From an uncultured Bacteroidaceae bacterium (GTDB taxonomy: Bacteria; Bacteroidota; Bacteroidia; Bacteroidales; GCA-2748055), in NCBI GenBank assembly GCA_964595055.1, contig CAZQOV010000002.1, positions 1-50,831 of the forward strand: a stretch of 50,831 bases of DNA, given 5' to 3'. The position numbers and the translations under genes are program-made. The stretch's first letter is position 1, and each line of letters starts with the position of its first letter. The notes beneath the pieces were generated by a model. That model saw only the letters and a list, made by a program, of their open reading frames with translations, was not told the DNA's origin and searched no databases. Below are positions 27,794-36,603 of this stretch, piece by piece.

Positions 27794-28804
27794 TCATTCC
27801 TCTTCCTCCTCTTCCTCTTCTTCTGTATCAACATTAAGCGACATTAACTGATATCCCCTGGTGGAAATCGAACTGGGCTTATTCTCATTTACTTCCTTGA
27901 CCAGCATGTAGGTTCTTTCTCCTGTGTTTTTATCCGTCTGGTCCATTTCCATCACAAATCCTCCATAATAAGCGGCTGTAGCAGCAGAAAATACATTGGA
28001 TGTGACCATTCTGGCCCAGAGGTCTGGTGAGATTTCATGAGTCATCCATACTGTACCTTCATCCTCCTCATCTTCATAACGGTACTCATCGCATTTATAA
28101 CCCGCAATCTTTTTGGTTTTTCCTGTTTTTTTAAGGTTCTCATTGTAAATGCTGTAGTCTTCTATCTTCTCAATTTCTTCTTCCTCCTGATCTTCCCATG
28201 AACTTTCATCAACTGAATCAATCGCATAACTGGTTACAATTCCGGTTTTTTCTTTACCGTTGTCCGTGAGTATTAGCATTGCTCCATTTTTTGTGTCAAA
28301 GATCATGGTTGAACTTGCATTGTCCTGATAAAATTCCATAGCAAAACCCGAATAGGTTTTGGAATAATGAGTGGTATAATTCATCTCACCTTCGGTCTCT
28401 CCGCTTTGATCCCAGCTTTGAACGGTCATCAGTATGTTTCCCTGATAATCATAATTTTCCTGAACATTGGCAGGAGCCATGTTTAAGCCCATTTTTTTCA
28501 TCATCGCCGCAGCCATAGCATCGGAAGGATCTGCTACTGTTTTTTTATCTTCGGTGGAGCTTGCACGGTCTTCCGAATTTTCGCTTTCTTCTTCACTTCC
28601 AAACATATCCTCAAACACATTTTCGACTCCTTTATCCACCTGTTTATTCATTTCATCTGTAATTTCCTCGTCAGCCTTCTGGGCAGCACGATTTGTTGCC
28701 TGTTTCATTTTTTTCTCCAGGAATCTTCCAACGGGCTGAGCATTGGTTTCGAAAAAAAATGAGGCAATAAACACCATAATGATAATAAAACTTAGCTTTT
28801 TCAT
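27794..28804 (-). CDS. Secreted, highly acidic hypothetical protein with a C-terminal Glu9 tail
   Basis: 336 aa with signal peptide MKKLSFIIIMVFIASFFFETNAQ. It has multiple Asp/Glu runs (EEESENSEDR, QEEEEIEKIED, EDEEDEG) and ends in TEEEEEEEEE. No recognisable catalytic motif. Confidence 0.6.
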   Translation of the reverse strand: MKKLSFIIIMVFIASFFFETNAQPVGRFLEKKMKQATNRAAQKADEEITDEMNKQVDKGVENVFEDMFGSEEESENSEDRASSTEDKKTVADPSDAMAAAMMKKMGLNMAPANVQENYDYQGNILMTVQSWDQSGETEGEMNYTTHYSKTYSGFAMEFYQDNASSTMIFDTKNGAMLILTDNGKEKTGIVTSYAIDSVDESSWEDQEEEEIEKIEDYSIYNENLKKTGKTKKIAGYKCDEYRYEDEEDEGTVWMTHEISPDLWARMVTSNVFSAATAAYYGGFVMEMDQTDKNTGERTYMLVKEVNENKPSSISTRGYQLMSLNVDTEEEEEEEEE

Positions 28805-29403: not shown

Positions 29404-29823
29404 TTATCTCGAATAAAGGGCGTAATATTCGACTTCCATACTTGCATCATCTACGGTATAGATCATCTTTACCTCATTTAGACCATTGTTAACGGTCCCT
29501 TCACCATGAATATAGAGGTTTGAGATAAGCTGGTTTTCAATGAGAAGAACAGAATCATTTTGCCGATTTGCATAAATAAACTCCGCATTTCCCTGGTTAT
29601 GAAAATTGGATATGATAAAGAGATTTTCCTGATCATTTACCTGATCTATTTCAACAATATACTTTCGATGGCCAGTGTATGGTGAGTTTTCCTCACAGCG
29701 ATAAATACCCTCCAGGCTTTCATAGGTTTTTTCTGTTTTTTCTTCCTCACAGGAAATGGAGAAAAAAAGAAGAAACAGCAGAACAATGTTAGAAATTTTC
29801 TGTTTTCTCAATCCCTTTCTCAT
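29404..29823 (-). CDS. Hypothetical small lipoprotein, last gene of the minus-strand arm of the 29.4-36.6 kb locus
   Basis: The track start (29892) is GTG. The ATG at 29823 gives MRKGLRKQKISNIVLLFLLFFSISCEEEK, a signal peptide with a Cys and an acidic linker. It overlaps the 3' end of the MORN-repeat gene by 35 nt. Confidence 0.5.
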   Translation of the reverse strand: MRKGLRKQKISNIVLLFLLFFSISCEEEKTEKTYESLEGIYRCEENSPYTGHRKYIVEIDQVNDQENLFIISNFHNQGNAEFIYANRQNDSVLLIENQLISNLYIHGEGTVNNGLNEVKMIYTVDDASMEVEYYALYSR

Positions 29824-30991
29824 AATGTTTTTTTTCAACGCTAATACCTTCTTTATTAAATGCTTCGGCAAGTCCGTCTCTTTTTCCTTCACAATATCGA
29901 ATTATACTCATCTTTTCTCCGGTTTCATAATAGGTGATCCATTCTCCTTGTTTAAGATCGTTCTTATATTGACCCATATTTTTTATGGCTCCTGACCCGT
30001 AATAAACTGTAAATATGCCTTCTGCTTTACCATTCTGATAATCTCCTTTTTGTTTCACATTCCCGTTTTGATGATAAATGAGCCATTCTCCTTGGAATGT
30101 GTTGTTTTTGTATTTACCCTTTGTATAAACAGATCCATCAGGATAATAACTTTCCCAGATCCCGGACTTTTTCCCTTTATGGTACTCTCCTTTTTCCATT
30201 ATTGCCCCTTTTTTCTTTGGTTCTCCGCCCTTAAAATATTTGACATAGCTTCCATTAAGGGTGTCATTGGTATAAAAACATTCCAGTGAAATTGAACCAT
30301 CGGGATAATAGCCGGTCAGTTTTCCATTCAACATCGAATTTTTATAGAAACATTCCTTCTGGGGAGCACCATTTTCGTATTCCTTATAATAGCTGATGAA
30401 ATGATTCGTGTAGTGGCCGTTTTCCTTTTCCGACCTTTCTCTGATTTTTCCATTTTCGTAATAAATCTCCTGGGGTCCGTGTTCAGAGCCCTTAAGATAG
30501 TTTTTTACATACCTGAGTTTTCCATCCTCAAACCATGCCTTAACAGATCCACAAATCTGTCCGTTTTTGTAGGAAATGCTTTCATTCAGATTTCCGTTAG
30601 TATGATAAATATGTGTAATTCCATGCAGTACATCGTTGGAATATTCCGCTTCCTGATAAAGGCTGCCGTCGGGATAGTAATATTTCAGTGTACCGTTCAA
30701 TTTTCCGTTGTCATATGGAAGGTGCTGTTTTAATGTACCCTCCGGATAGTAATCCAACCATGTTCCGTCGAGTTTATCATTCAAAAACTCACCTTTTTGC
30801 CATATGGAACCATTGGGGTGATAGATGATATAACTCCCTTCCCTGACTGTGTCCATACCGTTAATGATTACCTGGTACTTTTCACGGGTTGCATTTTCCT
30901 TATTTTCATAATGGGTTATGATCCAGTCCTGCGAATCAAGACGGAAGGGCAGAAGGACAAATAATAGTAGAAAAGAATAGCACAATTTCAT
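29789..30991 (-). CDS. MORN-variant-repeat protein (the family often auto-annotated as 'YwqK antitoxin'), exported
   Basis: 400 aa with N-terminal signal peptide MKLCYSFLLLFVLLPFRLDSQ. It contains more than 12 tandem ~23-aa repeats of the type YY.nG.l..e..y.nGk.hG (for example YYPDGSLYQEAEYSNDVLHG and YYPDGSVYTKGKYKNNTFQG). Its ATG overlaps the upstream stop (ATGA at 30988-30991). Confidence 0.8.
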   Translation of the reverse strand: MKLCYSFLLLFVLLPFRLDSQDWIITHYENKENATREKYQVIINGMDTVREGSYIIYHPNGSIWQKGEFLNDKLDGTWLDYYPEGTLKQHLPYDNGKLNGTLKYYYPDGSLYQEAEYSNDVLHGITHIYHTNGNLNESISYKNGQICGSVKAWFEDGKLRYVKNYLKGSEHGPQEIYYENGKIRERSEKENGHYTNHFISYYKEYENGAPQKECFYKNSMLNGKLTGYYPDGSISLECFYTNDTLNGSYVKYFKGGEPKKKGAIMEKGEYHKGKKSGIWESYYPDGSVYTKGKYKNNTFQGEWLIYHQNGNVKQKGDYQNGKAEGIFTVYYGSGAIKNMGQYKNDLKQGEWITYYETGEKMSIIRYCEGKRDGLAEAFNKEGISVEKKHYEKGIEKTENF

Positions 30992-31797
30992 TTTACCTCC
31001 ATTAACATTTGTACACCTTCAATGGCCGAATTGTTTCCGTAATCCATCAGCATGGCCAGGGCATAGGATCCGGAGGGAGGATTAACCGGGAGGGTCAATT
31101 GAACTTTTCTTTTAAACCCCGGGTAAATGCTGAACCGTGTTTTTTTGAACTGCTCTTCTTCAGCGGTTTCAAGGTTTGCCAGAGCTAAAAATACATGGGC
31201 ATCTACTACTTTATCCCCTTCATTGGATATAGTCGCTTCAAAGGTCCGAAAGGGTTTTCCCGGTTTTGTGATTTCTTTCAGACCATTTATTTTCGCTTTA
31301 TAATTCTGATTTGCACGCGGACTTTGTTTAACGAGTACCACGATTCTGGGAACAATAATCACACCCGTAGCAAGTTGTTTATCAGCATCAGACGGATTTT
31401 GTTCTTTGGATACTTCTACATTAACCATGCCCCACCGGGTGCTATAGCCATTTCGGGGAACTGACATGATCAACTCAATTTCAGCGCTTTCATTTGGATT
31501 CAGTTCGACAAATGCGGGATTTATATTGATCCAGTTAAACAAACTATGCTGAGAGGTTCCTGGTTCAAGGCGTTTTTTCCTTCCCTCAATATCGAGCTCA
31601 TAATCGGTCAGGTTGAAAGTGTATTTTTGTCTTTGGGGCGAATGATTGCGCAGTGTAAGCGTACGGGTTTGTATTTCCCCCGGATTCGCATCAAATTTCA
31701 CCAGTACGGGTGCCACTTCGAAATCCTGTGCCTTAATATCTATTGATAAGCTTGCCAGGCAGAGAAAACCAAGGAATAACCTATTGCTCATTCTCAT
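30988..31797 (-). CDS. Exported two-domain beta-sandwich protein, candidate periplasmic chaperone-like component
   Basis: The track start (31863) is TTG and overlaps a -7 box. The ATG at 31797 gives MRMSNRLFLGFLCLASLSIDIKAQ, a signal peptide. Two ~110-aa all-beta-looking halves follow. The first (QTRTLTLRNHSPQRQKYTFNL..WININPAFVELNPNESAEIELIMSVP) has the pattern of PapD/DUF916/NEW3-type Ig-like domains. The functional label is inference only. Confidence 0.45.
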   Translation of the reverse strand: MRMSNRLFLGFLCLASLSIDIKAQDFEVAPVLVKFDANPGEIQTRTLTLRNHSPQRQKYTFNLTDYELDIEGRKKRLEPGTSQHSLFNWININPAFVELNPNESAEIELIMSVPRNGYSTRWGMVNVEVSKEQNPSDADKQLATGVIIVPRIVVLVKQSPRANQNYKAKINGLKEITKPGKPFRTFEATISNEGDKVVDAHVFLALANLETAEEEQFKKTRFSIYPGFKRKVQLTLPVNPPSGSYALAMLMDYGNNSAIEGVQMLMEVK

Positions 31798-31860
31798 AAT
31801 TGAACATGTTTTAAGATGAAAAAACAAGATTTCCCGATTCATATTGTATTTATTGGGTTT

Positions 31861-31868
31861 CAAAAATA
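31861..31868 (-). promoter_or_regulatory. Candidate -7 promoter box (TATTTTTG on the minus strand) for the 30988..31797 operon
   Basis: The reverse complement of CAAAAATA (31861-31868) is TATTTTTG, which matches TAnnTTTG. It lies 64 nt upstream of the ATG at 31797, and its position argues against the TTG start at 31863. Confidence 0.4.
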
Positions 31869-31920
31869 ATTATTTTTATACAGGAAATGTATAATAAATT
31901 GATGCATAGTTGAATATCAC

Positions 31921-31970
31921 GAAAACTGCGAAACTGCAGCAGGTATTTACCCCTGTATCCCCATTCCATG
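31921..31970. repeat. Partial copy R3 of the dispersed element (AACTGC tract plus C-rich box)
   Basis: GAAAACTGCGAAACTGCAGCAGG followed by CCCCTGTATCCCCATTCCATG parallels the right end of R1 (AAACTGCACAACTGCCTAACTGC...CTCCTCCCCATGG). No partner inverted repeat is seen nearby. Confidence 0.4.
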
Positions 31971-32239
31971 TAAGTACCTGTAAATGTTGGTATTGAAGCA
32001 TATTTATGTTCTTATATTGACCTTTCTCCTGATATAAGGGCTCATTAAAATCGGGTAAAAACCCCTGGCTTTTATGGGTAATTGATCCCTTTTTTCGCGT
32101 GAAGGCCCTGTTTTTTCTGGTTTTTCCTTCAAATATTTTTGATCTTGATATGACCAGTCCCTTCTTCTATCGGCAGATTTTGCTTGAAAGAGGCAGGTAA
32201 AGTTGTCATTAAAAATAAAATTTTTTTATCCAAATTTTA

Positions 32240-32950
32240 ATGATTATGAGAAAAGTACTTTTAACGACGGCAGCATTGCTGATCTTTAGTGTAGGGCTTT
32301 TTGCCCAGGCGGTTAAGGACAGGCAGGTGATCCCTGTTTCTGTCAATCTTAACCAGGTTTTGAGAATGACCATAACAAACGGAGGGAACATTGAATTTGT
32401 TTTCAATTCCATTGATGATTACCGGGATGGGTTGTCGGCAGATGAAGCAACTTCGGGTTCTGCAAACCCTGGATCATCTGAGGGTTTTTATCAGACAGAT
32501 TTTACCATTTCATCCTCTACCCGTTGGAAGATTGATTATGGCTCCGAGCAAGCAACCTTTATCGGAACGGATAATCCGGCCAATGAGCTTGCGCTTGACA
32601 ATGTAGGGTTTACTCTCGAAAATGAAGGAACCAAGGATTTCGAGGGGGCCGGTCAACCGCAGGGTACAACGGCAGGGTCCAGTCTTTACAGCGGGCCTAC
32701 TGATAATGCGAATGAAGTTGCTGCGCTTGAAGTTTATCCTGTTGCGCTTATTGAAGACAATGATGACGCTACTGTATCAAATGCCGGAGATGCAACCGAA
32801 AATTCTTTTAGCCTTCTCTGGAGATGTGGTACCGCTGAAGCGGGAGCAATTGTTCCCATGAATGCAGTGAGTTTGCTGAATCAGCAGCCCAGCCCTGAGC
32901 CTGACCGGTATGTTACCAATGTAATTTTTGAACTTGCAGTTGACAATTAA
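32240..32950 (+). CDS. Secreted hypothetical protein, candidate surface-structure subunit A (paralog of the 33039 gene)
   Basis: 236 aa with signal peptide ending FAQ-A and no lipobox. It shares three collinear motifs with the next gene: IEFVFNSIDDYRDGL, ELALDNVGFTLEN, and FSLLWRCG...PDRYVTNVIFELAV at the C-terminus. It has an acidic low-complexity insert at aa ~130-185. Confidence 0.6.
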   Translation: MIMRKVLLTTAALLIFSVGLFAQAVKDRQVIPVSVNLNQVLRMTITNGGNIEFVFNSIDDYRDGLSADEATSGSANPGSSEGFYQTDFTISSSTRWKIDYGSEQATFIGTDNPANELALDNVGFTLENEGTKDFEGAGQPQGTTAGSSLYSGPTDNANEVAALEVYPVALIEDNDDATVSNAGDATENSFSLLWRCGTAEAGAIVPMNAVSLLNQQPSPEPDRYVTNVIFELAVDN

Positions 32951-33038
32951 TACGCACAGATTCAATAAATTTCAATAGAAATAGTCAACATCTTCGTTGA
33001 CTATTTCTATTTTTGCCTTCTGATTATATTGGATTTTT

Positions 33039-33599
33039 ATGAGAATTATTGTCCTGACTTCTGTATTGCTTGCTTTTTGCGCTTCATCATATTCCCAGGA
33101 ATGGAATTATGCGCGCTTATCGATATTGTACGGAAGTAACATACCATTTAATTTCAATTCCATAGAAAAATATCGGACCGGAATTGAAATTACTGAAGGT
33201 ACGGTTTTGGGGATTACACTTGTAGATTCTTCTCAGCTTGGCCGAAGTCTCGAAGGTTTTGATCTGAATATAAGAACATTTAATGGTGCTACCATGATAA
33301 AGGGAGAATCTTCGAATCTCAGTCTTGAAAAAGTTCAGATTAAGGCTGAAAATTACCTTGGCCTGGAGGGGGGCTTCTCCAATGATTATGTTGATTTAAG
33401 CTCGGTATGGACAACACTATTTTCATATACCGATCCGACATTTGCCGATCTTAGCTGGGATCTTCATCAACTGAGTTTGTCATACCGCTGTGGTGTTCCT
33501 GTTTCGGCAGGAGGAAATGGCACCCTTCTGGGTGAAGAACCAGATTATTATAACATAGAGATTGAAATTGAGCTGGTTCCTACCGGACCCGGTTTCTAA
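33039..33599 (+). CDS. Secreted hypothetical protein, candidate surface-structure subunit B (paralog of the 32240 gene)
   Basis: 186 aa with signal peptide ending YSQ-E. Its motifs IPFNFNSIEKYRTGI, NLSLEKVQIKAEN and LSLSYRCG...PDYYNIEIEIELV are collinear with those of the upstream gene. Confidence 0.6.
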   Translation: MRIIVLTSVLLAFCASSYSQEWNYARLSILYGSNIPFNFNSIEKYRTGIEITEGTVLGITLVDSSQLGRSLEGFDLNIRTFNGATMIKGESSNLSLEKVQIKAENYLGLEGGFSNDYVDLSSVWTTLFSYTDPTFADLSWDLHQLSLSYRCGVPVSAGGNGTLLGEEPDYYNIEIEIELVPTGPGF

Positions 33600-33609
33600 T
33601 TCTTTAAGA

Positions 33610-36603
33610 ATGTGCAGCAGTGGACTGAAAAGTCTGTTTTTTTATATAACCTATCATTCTAAGTGCATACGTTTTGAATCCGTTCTTATCCTGTCCTTGC
33701 TGTTTGTTTTTTTTCCTGACGTTAATGGAGAAAAATTGCAAAGGGACAGTGTGCTGCATTTTTCCTTCGCCAGGGAAAATACCAGGATGGAAGAAGCTGG
33801 TGCGTATTTTAACGTAGTAACTATTGAAAACCGTGGAGATGAGAACGTCAGTGGCACATTGTTTTTCCGTCCACCGGAGAACTGGATCCTGATCGGGTCA
33901 AAAACCTATCCGATTGATTTGGATCCGGGTGAAAAAATTGTCCTTCCCATTCGAATCGGGATTCCGAAGAGTACAATTGGGGGAACCTCCTACCTCATTA
34001 GGGCTGTTCTCAGGACCAAAGGCCAGGTCTATTATCGGAACGCTTATCTTTCGATTAAGAAAAAATCGGATTGGAGAATGATCGTTGACAGAAGTGACGT
34101 TTATTTGAGTGATTTCAAACCTACGGGAAATTTTTCTGTTCACCTCAGAAACCGCGGGAATTCGAATGAATTGATAAAGCTGAAATTTGATAAGGGAGCT
34201 TTGTTGAGGTTTCAAACCTTTATTGAGGCGGATAGCATTCTTTTCGTTGAATTGCCTGCTTATAAAGACACGGTCCTGTCTTTTGGAATTTCTCAAAGAA
34301 AAGACCTTTCCTACACGGAAATCCGCGCACTCAAACAGAGCTGGAAGTCAACCAGTGTTTACATAGAGGCCAGCACATCAGAAAAAAAGGAATATGATGG
34401 TATTCGGGTTATTCCTCTTGTCAGCAAAAAATTCAATGATACTCCCTTGAGGACTTCTCCCCTCAATCTGGATTTGACCCTCTTCAATTTGCTTTCCTAT
34501 CAAAGACCCAAAGCTTCGTTTAAAGTACATGGAAAGCTTCTCTTGCCAGAGGAGCGACAGTTTCAATATTCTGTCGGAATGTATAACCTTTATTTCAACT
34601 CTCAGATGTATGAGCATCTGGATTTCTTAAGAATCTTCCGATATATGCTCAGGTACAATGATCCAAAAACCCAGTTGTGGGTAGGAGACCGGCTGGGGAC
34701 CGGGTCGTTGCATACAATGACAGGAAGGGGGCTCCGTGCAAAACATAGTGTGAAAGACAGGCATAATGTTTACTTCAATTTCATTCAGAATCCTTATGGA
34801 GGAAACCTGGGGTCATATGCAGGTTACGGAACAATGCTGGGAAAAATGGCCGTAAATACCGGAATTACCGTTGAAAATGCTTCCGCTAATAAGAACTCCA
34901 ATTATTCTTTCCACCTTGGAGGTACATACAGGTTTTTCGGTCGCCATACCCTGAGGCTTCAAACGGCAACAACGCTCAGCAAATTCATCCCTGACAGATA
35001 CCTGGAGAAAGATACCACTACTCTTGGTTTTGCGTACAGGTTAAGTTATCATTTCAAAGACGATCAGACGAGCCTGCGAATTGATAATACAAATACCTCA
35101 TTTACTTTCTTAAAAAATGCCGGAATTAATCGGTTTGATGTGGATTTAAAATACAGGGTGAATGAAAAACTCCGCTTTTACAATTTATATCATCACAACA
35201 GTTATTCTGCCAGTCGGTATCCTTACAATTTTTATCATCCTGAAAACAGAAACATAAATGACAATGGTAGATTTATTCTTTCTTACACCCAGGGCGATAT
35301 GGTTTACCAGCTCGGCCCACAATTCTATAGCACCATACGGAAGAATTATAATCCCGGGACAGGCGTGGCTACACGATACGAGAATTACCAGCCCGGGATA
35401 ATGACTTCGATGACCTTCAATATTGGAGGGTTGAGAAGCATCACCCCCAACTTCTCTTTTAATACTATGTATTTTAAATATTCCACCGACATTCCCGGAG
35501 ATGAAAGCTTTTCTCTATCCGGTCACTGGAAGTATACCGCTGGCATCAGCTATTACGATCAGGCTTTTAAACTGAATGCGTATTATTCAAGTGGCGAAGC
35601 TTCGGATATTTATCGAAGTGTGGTGATTGATGAGGATCCGCAAATCAATCAGGCGATACATCTCCGGCCACATTACGAAAGGTATTTTAATGATGAAACC
35701 ATTCGATTGAGTGCTCATATAAATTATTCCTATTATATGCCCTCACAGCGGGAGAACACCATATTTAATGTAACAGCCGATTTTTCACTCAAATCGGGTT
35801 GGGATCTGTTTAGCAGCTTCAATGTTTACAGAAATTCACGGATGGATAATGATGTGGGAAGGATTACAACGCGCGACATGAATTTGCTTGCCGGTTTTCG
35901 CAAAAGCTTTGATGTTCAGCAACCCAGAATGAAGTATCATGATCTGACCCTGGTAGGATTTAACGATCAAAACGGGAATAATATTAAGGATAAAGATGAA
36001 AAACCCATTTCCAATGTATTGATCAACATCATAAGAGATCCGGAAAAAAATGAAGAACACAAGACCCGTTTTGCAGAAACCCGCATGATCACAGATCCCA
36101 ATGGAGAGATACATTACGGGAACATTCCGGAAGGCAATTACGATTTGAAGATTACCCCCCTTTCCAACCTCGAGGATTTGTATTTTCTGGATGGTCAGAA
36201 TCAGGTCCTTACGGCTGATGAGGATAAGGTCCATTATCTTCCACTGGTTGAGAGCTATAAAATTAAAGGCAAGGTAATAGTTGATCGTGACCCAAACAGT
36301 AGTGAAGGGAAAATAAACCTGGAAGGCATACGTATTTCTGCTGTGGGTGAAAATGGGTCGAATTATTCAACACTTACCACTTCTGATGGCCGTTATGTTC
36401 TCAACTTGCCAAAAGCTCATTTTTACACGGTGAAAATATATAATGTTTTTGGAAGCCGCTTCATGCTTGAACAGGGTGAATTTGAAGTCCAGTTTATGGA
36501 AAACAAAACCATTAACCTTGACTTCCGGTTTAGTGAAGAAAGAAGAGCAATTGAATTCAATGATGGCGAGCAGTTGTTTGATTTTAATATAGACCGGAAC
36601 TGA
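33610..36603 (+). CDS. Large outer-membrane protein: two N-terminal Ig-like modules, a beta-barrel-like core and two C-terminal CarboxypepD_reg/SdrD-B-like domains (usher-like architecture)
   Basis: The track start is TTG (33562), inside the upstream gene. The ATG at 33610, 10 nt after that gene's stop, gives 997 aa with a hydrophobic leader (VLILSLLFVFFPDVNG). N-terminal modules include FNVVTIENRGDENVSGTLFF..LDPGEKIVLPIRIGIP and FSVHLRNRGNSNELIKLKF. The ~550-aa Tyr/Asn/Gly-rich section has alternating-hydrophobic strands. C-terminal segments are VGFNDQNGNNIKDKDEKPISNVLINII..TDPNGEIHYGNIPEGNYDL and KGKVIVD..GIRISAVGENGSNYSTLTTSDGRYVLNLP. Confidence 0.6.
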   Translation: MCSSGLKSLFFYITYHSKCIRFESVLILSLLFVFFPDVNGEKLQRDSVLHFSFARENTRMEEAGAYFNVVTIENRGDENVSGTLFFRPPENWILIGSKTYPIDLDPGEKIVLPIRIGIPKSTIGGTSYLIRAVLRTKGQVYYRNAYLSIKKKSDWRMIVDRSDVYLSDFKPTGNFSVHLRNRGNSNELIKLKFDKGALLRFQTFIEADSILFVELPAYKDTVLSFGISQRKDLSYTEIRALKQSWKSTSVYIEASTSEKKEYDGIRVIPLVSKKFNDTPLRTSPLNLDLTLFNLLSYQRPKASFKVHGKLLLPEERQFQYSVGMYNLYFNSQMYEHLDFLRIFRYMLRYNDPKTQLWVGDRLGTGSLHTMTGRGLRAKHSVKDRHNVYFNFIQNPYGGNLGSYAGYGTMLGKMAVNTGITVENASANKNSNYSFHLGGTYRFFGRHTLRLQTATTLSKFIPDRYLEKDTTTLGFAYRLSYHFKDDQTSLRIDNTNTSFTFLKNAGINRFDVDLKYRVNEKLRFYNLYHHNSYSASRYPYNFYHPENRNINDNGRFILSYTQGDMVYQLGPQFYSTIRKNYNPGTGVATRYENYQPGIMTSMTFNIGGLRSITPNFSFNTMYFKYSTDIPGDESFSLSGHWKYTAGISYYDQAFKLNAYYSSGEASDIYRSVVIDEDPQINQAIHLRPHYERYFNDETIRLSAHINYSYYMPSQRENTIFNVTADFSLKSGWDLFSSFNVYRNSRMDNDVGRITTRDMNLLAGFRKSFDVQQPRMKYHDLTLVGFNDQNGNNIKDKDEKPISNVLINIIRDPEKNEEHKTRFAETRMITDPNGEIHYGNIPEGNYDLKITPLSNLEDLYFLDGQNQVLTADEDKVHYLPLVESYKIKGKVIVDRDPNSSEGKINLEGIRISAVGENGSNYSTLTTSDGRYVLNLPKAHFYTVKIYNVFGSRFMLEQGEFEVQFMENKTINLDFRFSEERRAIEFNDGEQLFDFNIDRN

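What the first reader, a model, noticed from the sequence alone, without database searches (positions are those of the whole stretch)
29404..36603. Divergent six-gene envelope locus with a chaperone-usher-like parts list but no recognisable pilus family (candidate undescribed surface-assembly system)
Plus arm: two small paralogous Sec-signal proteins (236 and 186 aa) are followed 10 nt later by a 997-aa protein. That protein is built as leader, two ~90-aa Ig-like modules, a ~550-aa Tyr/Asn/Gly-rich barrel-like core, and two C-terminal carboxypeptidase-regulatory/SdrD-B-like beta-sandwiches. Minus arm, transcribed from the same 376-bp control region: an exported two-domain beta-sandwich protein whose first domain resembles the N-terminal modules of the big protein (TLTLRNHSPQRQKYTFNL versus FSVHLRNRGNSNELIKLKF). 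It is translationally coupled (ATGA) to an exported MORN-repeat protein and a small lipoprotein. Subunits, a periplasmic Ig-fold partner and an NTD-barrel-CTD1-CTD2 outer-membrane protein together form the logic of chaperone-usher pili (PapD/PapC, Csu). Bacteroidota are known for lipoprotein-type (type V, FimA/Mfa) pili and T9SS cargo. None of these proteins shows a pilin lipobox or a T9SS C-terminal domain, and I cannot place the subunits in any named family.
Basis: partly seen in the sequence, partly recalled or inferred. Interest (0 to 1): 0.8.

Follow-up and report, generated by a model that had tools for sequence, protein, structure and literature searches.

The report
Bacteroidota donor-strand pilus gene cluster
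This six-gene cluster from an uncultured Bacteroidota bacterium most likely builds a surface fibre whose main subunit is related to the "TLP-1" tubular fibrils imaged in pond water in 2024, whose genes and producer were never identified; it would be assembled by an outer-membrane pore that resembles, but is not detectably related in sequence to, the E. coli pilus "usher".

Summary
A-B-C (236 aa, 186 aa, 997 aa) was contiguous in 52 of 52 related loci with enough sequence. D-E (two Ig-like domains; MORN repeats) were adjacent in 54 of 55 loci and lay next to A-B-C in 28 of 37 genomes.

New here: the AlphaFold model of A has as its best PDB matches the cryo-EM fibrils TLP-1a/b (Foldseek E 3e-5). 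These are donor-strand-exchange tubular pili whose genes and producer are unknown. A profile of the A superfamily hits only those two chains in the whole PDB (E 4.5e-4), aligned over the donor strand. B is a paralogue of A (hhalign 96.5%) that lacks exactly that donor strand, as tip subunits do. C models as two Ig-like domains, a barrel of about 26 strands, and two beta-sandwiches. Its best barrel matches are the ushers FimD and PapC, but TM-scores are low, no plug is inserted, and no sequence homology is detectable (hhalign 1.3%). D shows no PapD signature.

Verdict: probably a chaperone-usher-like pathway, unreported in the papers I could search, for TLP-1-type pili in environmental Bacteroidota. 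It is not a member of the classical family. D's chaperone role is inferred only.

The parts
32240..32950 (+). A: major fibre subunit (pilin). Sec signal peptide (residues 1-22), then an N-terminal donor strand and an incomplete Ig-like head. The probable true start is the ATG at 32246.
   Evidence: The AF2 model has pLDDT 83.3 and pTM 0.75. Its Foldseek top PDB hits are 9ikk_A and 9ikj_A, TLP-1b/1a (E 3.4e-5 and 5.3e-5, probability 1.0), followed by the CfaB, CS17, CooA and EcpA pilins. The superfamily profile hits only the TLP chains in the PDB (E 4.5e-4). There are 512+ homologues, all unnamed, and no Pfam family.
32309..32350 (+). Donor strand (N-terminal extension) of A, residues 24-37, AVKDRQVIPVSVNL.
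   Evidence: It aligns with the beta1 donor strand of TLP-1 (VTVTMDL). It is nearly invariant across the family. It is unstructured with low pLDDT in the monomer model, as the paper reports for TLP-1 relatives. It is exactly the segment missing from B.
32974..33011 (+). Terminator-like or attenuator hairpin (16-17 bp stem followed by a T run) between A and B.
   Evidence: Found. A hairpin of dG <= -12 kcal/mol is present directly after A in 95 of 95 distinct related loci (median -21.9, against -9.5 for shuffles), with lineage-specific stem sequences.
33039..33599 (+). B: paralogue of A without a donor strand. Candidate tip or initiator (acceptor-only) subunit. It has a conserved C-terminal PTGxGF.
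   Evidence: hhalign A versus B gives probability 96.5%, E 7e-10, with a 13-residue N-terminal deletion in B. Mature N-termini of the B family read QEWN.ARL across 75 sequences. B is always found between A and C.
33610..36603 (+). C: outer-membrane assembly or secretion platform with usher-like architecture. Leader; Ig-like module 1 (33754-34059); Ig-like module 2 (34072-34434); barrel of about 26 strands (34465-35907); C-terminal sandwich 1 (35935-36285); C-terminal sandwich 2 (36319-36537).
   Evidence: The AF2 model has pLDDT 80.3. Pfam gives SdrD_B and CarboxypepD_reg at residues 784-943. The best barrel-containing Foldseek matches are FimD (9bog_D E 4e-9, 9fy9_D, 6e14_D) and PapC (7lhg_C), followed by LptD and TonB-dependent receptors. 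There is no sequence homology to ushers.
31798..32239 (.). Divergent intergenic control region between D and A (442 bp with the ATG start of D).
   Evidence: No convincing invertible-promoter repeats. The sigma-70 consensus scan gives no more sites than shuffles over the locus and is not designed for other promoter types.
30988..31797 (-). D: exported protein with two tandem Ig-like domains. Candidate periplasmic partner or chaperone of A and B.
   Evidence: Its signal peptide ends ...IKA|QDFEV. Domain 1 gives weak hits to fn3_5, Cep192_D6, WxLIP_PGBD, ASH and MSP. Domain 2 gives weak hits to fn3_5 and HYDIN-type Ig. It is adjacent to A-B-C in 28 of 37 genome loci. It shows no PapD signature.
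29789..30991 (-). E: exported MORN-repeat protein, translationally coupled to D (ATGA overlap). Accessory, role unknown.
   Evidence: MORN_2 E 1.6e-39 with 10 repeats. E is adjacent to D in 54 of 55 loci.
29404..29823 (-). F: small lipoprotein (lipobox FSIS|C followed by the acidic stretch EEEK). Lineage-restricted accessory.
   Evidence: Present in Bacteroidales and Paludibacter loci and absent from Flavobacteriales loci.

Best explanation
The locus encodes a donor-strand-exchange pilus of the TLP-1 type together with its export machinery.

- A is the major subunit. After Sec export and signal-peptide cleavage, its N-terminal strand (VIPVSVNL) completes the incomplete Ig-like fold of another A subunit, which builds the fibre.
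- B is a paralogue that keeps the acceptor fold but has no donor strand. It can therefore sit only at the end assembled first, as a tip or initiator.
- C is the outer-membrane pore and assembly platform. Two Ig-like domains at its N-terminus and two beta-sandwich domains at its C-terminus, which would lie in the periplasm if it is oriented as ushers are, flank a large barrel, as in ushers.
- A conserved hairpin after gene A keeps A in excess over B and C.
- D-E(-F) is an accessory envelope module, and D is the best candidate for a periplasmic chaperone that caps the open groove of A and B.

Shown: gene content and synteny; A/B paralogy and the missing strand in B; the fold and N-terminal sequence link between A and TLP-1; the domain plan of C.

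Inferred: fibre formation by A, the tip role of B, export through C, and (most weakly) the chaperone role of D.
For: - The A model's top two PDB matches are the TLP-1b and TLP-1a fibril protomers (E 3.4e-5 and 5.3e-5). The next matches are chaperone-usher pilins at E >= 9e-3.
- A 119-sequence superfamily profile hits only 9ikk_A and 9ikj_A among 177,635 PDB sequences (E 4.5e-4 and 1.4e-3). The alignment covers the donor strand and the next two strands.
- The TLP-1 paper shows that this strand is the donor in donor-strand exchange. It also reports that the closest predicted folds are unannotated Flavobacteriales proteins with a signal peptide and an N-terminus that AlphaFold leaves disordered. 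The A model behaves the same way.
- B is a paralogue of A lacking exactly that strand.
- A-B-C was contiguous in 52 of 52 loci, within varying genomic contexts.
- C has the plan Ig x2, barrel of about 26 strands, sandwich x2. FimD and PapC are its best barrel-containing structural matches, aligning over 820-995 columns.
- A terminator-like hairpin follows A in 95 of 95 loci.
- D-E lies next to A-B-C in 28 of 37 genomes. The arrangement persists down to 41-45% D identity (loci L150-L164).
- The genomes that carry the locus are freshwater and sediment Bacteroidota MAGs, which fits a pond-water fibril.
Against: - There are no experimental data for this locus.
- The A-TLP-1 link is modest: TM-score 0.44, and sequence similarity only in the N-terminal ~60 residues. 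A C-terminal profile finds nothing in the PDB.
- In TLP-1 the donor strand comes from subunit n+4, so the tube consists of four strand-linked protofilaments. Single-file extrusion through one usher-like pore does not obviously produce that.
- C has no inserted plug domain and no detectable homology to ushers (hhalign 1.3%). Its Foldseek scores against LptD (E 2.5e-8) and TonB-dependent receptors (E 1.5e-6) are not far behind those for ushers, and TM-scores are at most 0.38.
- D has no PapD signature. It was not modelled here. It lies outside the fetched flanks of A-B-C (at least 2.5 kb on each side) in 9 of 37 genomes.
- A is unusually conserved for an exposed major pilin: 57-91% identity across orders.
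Confidence: 0.6

Rival explanations
1. A and B form donor-strand fibres, but assembly is chaperone-free, as for TasA or the archaeal cannulae. C is only a secretion pore or anchor, and D-E-F is a separate envelope module that is merely often co-located.
For: A-B-C stands alone among housekeeping genes in 9 of 37 genomes. D-E also occurs alone, next to a gyrB-like gene (my reading of its translated N-terminus; no family search was run), in L142, L147, L153 and L156. D has no PapD signature. Chaperone-free donor-strand polymers are known (the TLP-1 paper compares TasA; the cannulae paper's title).
Against: D-E adjacency to A-B-C is kept in both Bacteroidales and Flavobacteriales, in two different orientations, and down to about 41% D identity. 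Subunits with an open hydrophobic groove usually need capping in the periplasm of bacteria with two membranes (established knowledge of chaperone-usher systems).
Confidence: 0.2
2. The locus builds a non-filamentous cell-surface complex, the two-membrane counterpart of the Gram-positive WxL/WxLIP clusters. D (WxLIP-like) would hold A and B on the surface, and C would be their translocon or anchor.
For: 49 of 60 D-family members give weak WxLIP_PGBD (DUF916) hits, the best at 28.6 bits against a cut-off of 27.3, and one is named DUF916 by NCBI. The commonest WxL cluster is one WxLIP plus two WxL proteins. WxLIP is two perpendicular Ig domains, and AlphaFold predicts that it inserts a strand into WxL (PMC10599100). 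This mirrors D + A + B.
Against: A and B give no WxL-domain hit. D lacks the C-terminal membrane helix of WxLIP. Its Pfam hits are equally good to several generic Ig families. The best structural relatives of A are fibre protomers.
Confidence: 0.1
3. The locus is a highly diverged true member of the chaperone-usher family, with C homologous to PapC/FimD and D homologous to PapD.
For: Ushers are the best barrel-containing Foldseek matches and align end to end. Domain 1 of D gives weak hits to MSP, ASH and Cep192 Ig families; from my own recollection of Pfam's clans (not checked here) these belong with PapD_N. The secondary PDB matches of A are chaperone-usher pilins.
Against: hhalign gives 1.3% for both D versus five E. 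coli chaperones and C versus four E. coli ushers. There are no Usher, PapD_N, PapD_C, Fimbrial or SCPU Pfam hits. C has about 26 strands and no plug insert, against 24 strands plus a plug in ushers. Only classical E. coli operons were used as reference, so archaic and alternate clades remain untested.
Confidence: 0.07
4. C is a nutrient or lipid transport barrel, and A and B are its substrate-binding or periplasmic partners, with no fibre involved.
For: Foldseek also matches LptD, TonB-dependent receptors and MtrB. CarboxypepD_reg domains also occur in SusC-type transporters (established knowledge).
Against: C has no plug, TonB box, or TonB-dependent receptor or LptD family hit. There are no SusD-like or ABC partners conserved nearby. 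A and B have a pilin-like fold with a donor-strand asymmetry.
Confidence: 0.03

Closest known systems
TLP-1a/TLP-1b fibrils from Tsinghua Lotus Pond water (PDB 9IKJ/9IKK; Wang et al., PNAS 2024, PMC11494351)
   Same: They are the best structural match of A in the PDB and the only sequence-profile match. The shared features are the N-terminal donor-strand motif, the split beta2a/beta2b strand, a signal peptide, and an N-terminus that is disordered in monomer predictions. The paper's closest predicted relatives are unannotated Flavobacteriales proteins, and the A family lives in Flavobacteriales and Bacteroidales MAGs from freshwater and sediment.
   Different: Mature A has about 214 residues against 236-237. 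Sequence similarity is confined to the first ~60 residues, and the TM-score is 0.44. Whether A forms an 8-nm tube with n+4 strand exchange is unknown. The paper identified neither genes, organism nor assembly machinery, whereas this locus supplies candidates for all three.
Chaperone-usher pili (type 1/P pili FimC-FimD, PapD-PapC; class 5 CFA/I, CS1; archaic Csu)
   Same: The logic is shared: Sec-exported Ig-like subunits with an N-terminal donor strand, a strand-less tip-type paralogue, a large outer-membrane barrel flanked by N- and C-terminal beta-sandwich domains, a periplasmic protein with two Ig domains encoded nearby, and a hairpin after the major subunit gene. FimD and PapC, and CfaB, CS17 and CooA, are among the top structural matches.
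   Different: There is no detectable sequence homology for C or D. The barrel has about 26 strands without an inserted plug. Two N-terminal Ig modules replace the single usher N-terminal domain. The chaperone candidate sits in a separate, sometimes distant operon coupled to a MORN protein. In TLP-1 the donor is subunit n+4 rather than n+1.
Gram-positive WxL clusters (WxLIP = DUF916+DUF3324 plus two WxL proteins; PMC10599100)
   Same: Both combine one two-Ig-domain protein with two paralogous small secreted beta-sandwich proteins. A predicted strand insertion from the Ig protein into the partner is reported for WxLIP. D-family members give marginal DUF916 hits.
   Different: A and B have no WxL motif or domain. 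D has no membrane helix. The host has two membranes and the locus has a dedicated outer-membrane barrel. The similarity is at the Pfam threshold only.
Bacteroidota type V pili (FimA/Mfa1)
   Same: Same phylum, and both are strand-exchange polymers of beta-sandwich subunits.
   Different: Type V pilins are lipoproteins matured by proteolysis. A and B have signal-peptidase-I-type leaders without a cysteine, and they hit no FimA or Mfa family.
Cyanobacterial tubular (CT) pilus of Microcystis (PMC12397347)
   Same: It is a recently found tubular pilus with a pilin-like paralogue. The authors propose that an outer-membrane porin acts as an usher-like platform.
   Different: The phylum and the gene set (glycosyltransferase, methyltransferase) differ. 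The pilin appeared nowhere among the listed matches of A.

Membership tests
TLP-1 fibril protomer family | Protomer fold similar to 9IKJ/9IKK | tested here: met
   Foldseek of the A model against the PDB ranks 9ikk_A and 9ikj_A first and second (E 3.4e-5 and 5.3e-5, probability 1.0, TM 0.44 and 0.40). The next hit has E 9e-3.
TLP-1 fibril protomer family | Sequence similarity, including the N-terminal donor strand | tested here: met
   The A6 profile hits only the two TLP chains in the PDB (E 4.5e-4 and 1.4e-3), aligned over profile positions 29-90 and chain residues 6-65. The C-terminal profile A7 finds nothing, so the similarity is N-terminal only.
TLP-1 fibril protomer family | Assembles into an 8-nm tubule with donor-strand exchange from subunit n+4 | not testable with these tools
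   This needs multimer prediction or electron microscopy of fibres.
Chaperone-usher pathway | Usher family signature (Pfam Usher) or profile homology to FimD/PapC-type ushers | tested here: not met
   There is no Usher hit in Pfam or NCBIfam. hhalign of C (24 sequences) against FimD, HtrE, ElfC and YehB gives probability 1.3%.
Chaperone-usher pathway | Usher architecture: N-terminal domain, 24-strand barrel with inserted plug, two C-terminal sandwiches | tested here: inconclusive
   The AF2 model shows Ig x2, about 26 strands with no inserted domain, then two sandwiches. FimD and PapC are the best barrel-containing Foldseek hits (E 4e-9 to 1e-7), but TM is at most 0.38 and LptD follows closely.
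Chaperone-usher pathway | PapD-like periplasmic chaperone (PapD_N/PapD_C) | tested here: not met
   hhalign of D against FimC, YadV, ElfD, YcbF and YehC gives probability 1.3%. PapD_N is not among the 25 Pfam families listed for the 60 D members, out of 50 matched.
Chaperone-usher pathway | Polymerising subunit with an N-terminal extension, and a tip subunit lacking it | tested here: met
   A carries the strand that aligns to the TLP-1 donor strand, and B lacks exactly those 13 residues.
Type V pili (FimA/Mfa) | Lipoprotein pilin precursor (lipobox cysteine) and a FimA or Mfa family domain | tested here: not met
   The A and B leaders end ...FAQ|AV and ...YSQ|EW without a cysteine. There are no such Pfam hits.
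T9SS cargo | C-terminal sorting domain (Por_Secre_tail type) | tested here: not met
   None of the six proteins has a hit at E <= 1 in Pfam or NCBIfam.
WxL/WxLIP surface complex | WxLIP (DUF916+DUF3324+membrane helix) together with WxL-domain proteins | tested here: inconclusive
   WxLIP_PGBD hits are weak in 49 of 60 D members (best 28.6 bits, cut-off 27.3), alongside equally good generic Ig hits. DUF3324 is not among the listed hits, D has no membrane helix, and A and B have no WxL domain.
TonB-dependent / SusC transporters | N-terminal plug domain and TonB-dependent receptor barrel signature | tested here: not met
   There are no Plug or TonB_dep_Rec hits. The model has Ig domains, not a plug, before the barrel.

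The most novel reading that the evidence does not exclude
This locus type is the long-missing genetic basis of the orphan TLP-1 class of environmental tubular pili. It would define a previously unrecognised, Bacteroidota-specific chaperone-usher-like assembly pathway: a plug-less barrel of about 26 strands, a strand-less initiator subunit, and a two-Ig-domain/MORN/lipoprotein accessory module. That pathway arose independently of, or diverged beyond recognition from, the proteobacterial chaperone-usher system, and may share ancestry with Gram-positive WxL/WxLIP surface complexes.
Probability: 0.45. Interest if true: 0.9.

Novelty: new variant of a known kind. Interest (0 to 1): 0.8.

Why it matters
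Fibrils of unknown origin dominated cryo-EM images of filtered pond water. TLP-1, one kind whose structure was solved, was explicitly left without genes, organism or assembly route (PMC11494351). This locus offers all three.

- It names a producer group: uncultured freshwater and sediment Bacteroidales and Flavobacteriales.
- It supplies a subunit family with no Pfam entry, comprising about 250 clusters at 50% identity.
- It provides a conserved candidate machine, which makes the biogenesis question directly testable by heterologous expression or complex prediction.

It would also add a second pilus pathway, independent of lipoprotein pilins, to a phylum thought to rely on type V pili. It would show that the design of donor-strand pilin plus tip subunit plus outer-membrane platform exists outside the recognised chaperone-usher family.

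Tried and rejected
1. Direct sequence searches of C, D and their profiles against the PDB found nothing useful.
2. Pfam and NCBIfam on all six proteins, and on 52, 60 and 119 family members, gave no family for A, B or F and only generic Ig hits for D.
4. I built reference profiles from the E. coli K-12 fim, yad, elf and yeh operons and compared them with hhalign. Both comparisons were negative. Archaic (Csu) and class 5 (Cfa/Coo) chaperones and ushers could not be fetched and remain untested.
5. A C-terminal-only profile of the A superfamily against the PDB, meant as a second, independent sequence link to TLP-1, found no hit.
6. I looked for the paper's reference protein A0A2M8AA21 among the representatives closest to the TLP fragment. 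No UniProt accessions were on record, and the paper's supplements are not held.
7. I searched the literature for any description of the TLP-1 locus or of chaperone-usher pili in Bacteroidota. Nothing turned up in the held library.
8. I looked for an invertible promoter in the divergent region and found only AT-rich chance repeats. The sigma-70 scan gave no more sites than shuffles.
9. D could not be modelled, because both structure-prediction jobs went to C and A.

Full report
**1. What is in the sequence.**

The region 29404-36603 holds six ORFs in two divergent arms.

- Plus arm: A (32240-32950, 236 aa), B (33039-33599, 186 aa) and C (33610-36603, 997 aa). C starts 10 nt after the B stop.
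- Minus arm: D (30988-31797, 269 aa from the ATG that homologues support), E (29789-30991, 400 aa, whose ATG overlaps the D stop as ATGA) and F (29404-29823, 139 aa, lipobox FSIS|C).

All six have N-terminal export signals, read directly from the sequence. Pfam and NCBIfam recognise only three things. C carries SdrD_B and CarboxypepD_reg sandwiches at its C-terminus, E carries MORN_2 repeats (E 1.6e-39), and the first half of D gives a scatter of sub-threshold Ig-like hits. A, B and F match nothing. Two corrections apply. The control region is 442 bp rather than 376 bp. The similarity between D and the N-terminal modules of C is weak (BLASTP E 0.75, hhalign probability 8.5%).

**2. The genes form a conserved unit made of two modules.**

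- Homologues of C, D and A are all unnamed proteins from Bacteroidota metagenome-assembled genomes.
- A scan of 185,579 species genomes with the A profile found 102 carriers. All 80 that were listed are MAGs of Bacteroidales, Paludibacter, Porphyromonadaceae and Flavobacteriales (Crocinitomix, Cryomorphaceae). Many isolate names in the record titles point to lakes, groundwater, biofilm or wastewater reactors.
- I searched all fetched loci with HMMs of the six proteins. A-B-C was contiguous and co-oriented in 52 of 52 loci with enough sequence.
- D-E(-F) lay divergently upstream in 25 genome loci and convergently downstream in 3. It was outside the fetched flanks in 9, out of 37 loci with at least 2.5 kb of flank on both sides.
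- A D-centred scan of metagenomes gave the reciprocal picture. E followed D in 54 of 55 loci, and A-B-C was nearby in 14 of 21.
- Some D-E pairs sat alone beside a gyrB-like gene (my reading of its N-terminal sequence), with no A-B-C within 10 kb.
- F is missing from the Flavobacteriales loci. Flanking genes differ from genome to genome.

The core is therefore A-B-C. D-E is a strongly but not obligatorily linked second operon, and F is a lineage-specific addition.

**3. What A is.**

AlphaFold2 on a 52-sequence alignment gave a confident model (pLDDT 83.3, pTM 0.75). It is a beta-sandwich head preceded by an unstructured segment at residues 27-40.

- Foldseek against the PDB ranked two chains far ahead of everything else: 9ikk_A and 9ikj_A (E 3.4e-5 and 5.3e-5, probability 1.0). 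The next matches, at E >= 9e-3, were the chaperone-usher pilins CfaB, CS17, CooA and EcpA, plus an archaeal cannula subunit.
- 9IKJ and 9IKK are TLP-1a and TLP-1b, 8-nm tubular fibrils reconstructed from filtered water of the Tsinghua Lotus Pond. Their protomers polymerise by donor-strand exchange: the N-terminal beta1 strand of protomer n+4 fills the cleft between beta2a/b and beta7 of protomer n.
- The authors found no matching sequence by metagenomics or mass spectrometry. They noted only that unannotated Flavobacteriales proteins have the same predicted fold, with a signal peptide and an N-terminus that AlphaFold leaves disordered (PMC11494351).
- I found no later paper in the held library that identifies the genes.

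Sequence evidence agrees with the fold match.

- The family profile's best two PDB hits are the TLP chains (E 0.089).
- An exhaustive search of 1.84 billion cluster representatives yielded 247 clusters at 50% identity.
- A 119-sequence superfamily profile built from those hit only the two TLP chains among 177,635 PDB sequences (E 4.5e-4 and 1.4e-3). The consensus "avipvsVtLnsilRLnvtsGgnIeFvfntidqyknGis" aligned to "QNVTVTMDLQPVLQLSMQGSETVSFVFSQISEYIGGLT".
- The 60-residue TLP fragment matches many representatives at E 5e-7 to 1e-4.
- A profile of the C-terminal third finds nothing. The sequence link is therefore confined to the donor strand and the following strands, which is also the most conserved part of the family.

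I conclude that A is a relative of the TLP-1 protomers but not identical to them. Mature A has about 214 residues against 236-237.

**4. What B is.**

hhalign shows that A and B are paralogues over their full length (probability 96.5%, E 7e-10). There is one clean difference: B lacks the 13 residues AVKDRQVIPVSVN that form the donor strand. Across 75 B sequences the mature protein begins QEWN.ARL, directly at the equivalent of beta2. A subunit that can accept a strand but cannot donate one can occupy only the end of a donor-strand polymer that is assembled first. That is the position of tip adhesins such as FimH, PapG and CsuE in chaperone-usher pili (established knowledge). B is therefore most simply a tip or initiator subunit. 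This is an inference from anatomy.

**5. What C is.**

The 24-sequence AlphaFold2 model (pLDDT 80.3, pTM 0.55) shows the following:

- two N-terminal beta-sandwich modules;
- 26 consecutive long strands between residues 286 and 766, with no inserted domain and only two short helices after strand 3;
- two C-terminal sandwiches.

In Foldseek the top hits are ciliary proteins that my notes take to be built of Ig-type repeats, so they would reflect the Ig modules of C. Among barrel proteins the best matches are the ushers FimD (9bog_D E 4.1e-9, plus 9fy9_D, 6e14_D and 9fxs_D) and PapC (7lhg_C E 1.2e-7), aligned over 820-995 columns. LptD follows (E 2.5e-8), then TonB-dependent receptors (from E 1.5e-6). 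TM-scores are at most 0.38.

Profile comparison with four E. coli ushers is negative (probability 1.3%). C therefore shares the domain order of an usher but differs in strand number, lacks a plug, and shows no recognisable homology.

**6. What D, E and F are.**

D has two tandem Ig-like domains. Domain 1 gives marginal hits to fn3_5, Cep192_D6, WxLIP_PGBD (DUF916), ASH and MSP. Domain 2 gives marginal hits to fn3_5 and HYDIN-type Ig. It has no similarity to five E. coli PapD-type chaperones (probability 1.3%) and no PDB sequence relative.

The DUF916 lead is suggestive. In Gram-positive WxL clusters, one WxLIP protein made of two perpendicular Ig domains accompanies two WxL proteins, and AlphaFold predicts that it inserts a strand into them (PMC10599100). 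The resemblance to D + A + B is close. However, the Pfam scores sit at threshold and are no better than generic Ig hits, so this stays a lead.

E is an exported MORN-repeat protein translationally coupled to D. F is a small lipoprotein whose cysteine is followed by acidic residues. I cannot assign roles to E or F.

**7. Regulation.**

A 16-17 bp hairpin followed by a T run sits just after A, at 32974-33011. A hairpin of at most -12 kcal/mol occurs directly downstream of A in all 95 distinct related loci. The median is -21.9 kcal/mol, against -9.5 for shuffled sequence, and the stem sequences differ between lineages. Partial termination after the major subunit gene is how pap-type operons achieve a large excess of major subunit over minor subunits and usher (established knowledge). 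Its conservation here fits A as the bulk component.

**8. Mechanism proposed.**

- A is exported by Sec. Its open groove is kept capped in the periplasm; D is the candidate, at roughly 35-40% likelihood.
- Subunits are delivered to C, whose Ig modules would be docking sites (periplasmic if C is oriented as ushers are).
- B enters first, and A subunits follow by strand exchange.
- The fibre winds into its final form outside the cell.

One difficulty remains open. The n+4 exchange in TLP-1 implies four strand-linked protofilaments, and a single pore does not obviously produce these. Several C copies, or assembly on the cell surface, would be needed.

**9. Comparison and novelty.**

The locus works like a chaperone-usher system but fails the sequence-based membership tests for usher and chaperone. 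It is not a type V pilus (no lipobox), not T9SS cargo (no C-terminal sorting domain) and not a TonB-dependent system. Its subunit belongs with the TLP-1 fibrils, whose genetics were unknown. I rate it a new variant of a known kind: donor-strand pili assembled at an outer-membrane platform. Interest is high because it turns an orphan structure into a testable genetic system and points to an unrecognised pilus pathway in environmental Bacteroidota.

Noticed in passing
window 32974-33011, and the A-B intergenic regions of L001-L170: A strong hairpin plus T run lies immediately after the major subunit gene. It is conserved in position in 95 of 95 distinct loci, but its stem sequence is lineage-specific (GAAATAGTCAAC... 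in Bacteroidales, AAGATTGATCAAC... in Paludibacter). It is probably an attenuator that sets the A:B:C stoichiometry.
   Followed up: partly
window 33582-33599 (C-terminus of B); B family alignment: The B family ends in a conserved ...EL.PTGxGF carboxy-terminus that is absent from A. It could be a docking or sorting motif for C. This was not tested.
   Followed up: no
L142, L147, L153, L156 (D-E alone); L002, L027, L031, L035, L051-L054, L062, L079 (A-B-C alone): The two modules can be separated. D-E sits beside a gyrB-like gene (judged from its translated N-terminus only) with no A-B-C within 10 kb, and A-B-C sits among housekeeping genes with no D-E inside the fetched flanks of about 4-9 kb. 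Whether such genomes carry the other module elsewhere could not be checked.
   Followed up: partly
L141 (three tandem A copies); L063 (E-D-A-B duplicated before E-D-A-B-C): Some loci carry tandem paralogues of the major subunit. This recalls the two closely related protomers TLP-1a and TLP-1b seen in one water sample.
   Followed up: no
C homologues in L023, L033, L041, L054, L057, L058, L060, L070, L076, L084 (1215-1537 aa) and P0024 (1465 aa): Paludibacter-type C proteins are 200-500 residues longer than the window's C. The extra domains were not examined.
   Followed up: no
window 29404-29823 (F) and the F family: The lipobox cysteine is usually followed by acidic residues (CEEEK, CD.., CE..). 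This resembles the Bacteroidota lipoprotein surface-export signal recalled from the literature, so F may be surface-exposed.
   Followed up: partly
window 27794-28804 (-): This ORF, just outside the locus, encodes a 336-aa, very acidic protein with a hydrophobic, signal-peptide-like N-terminus, ending in a run of nine glutamates. It was not analysed.
   Followed up: no
Genome scan, L007-L086: Every listed genome carrying the A gene is a metagenome-assembled genome, and no cultured isolate appeared among the 80 shown. That may explain why the system has escaped study.
   Followed up: partly
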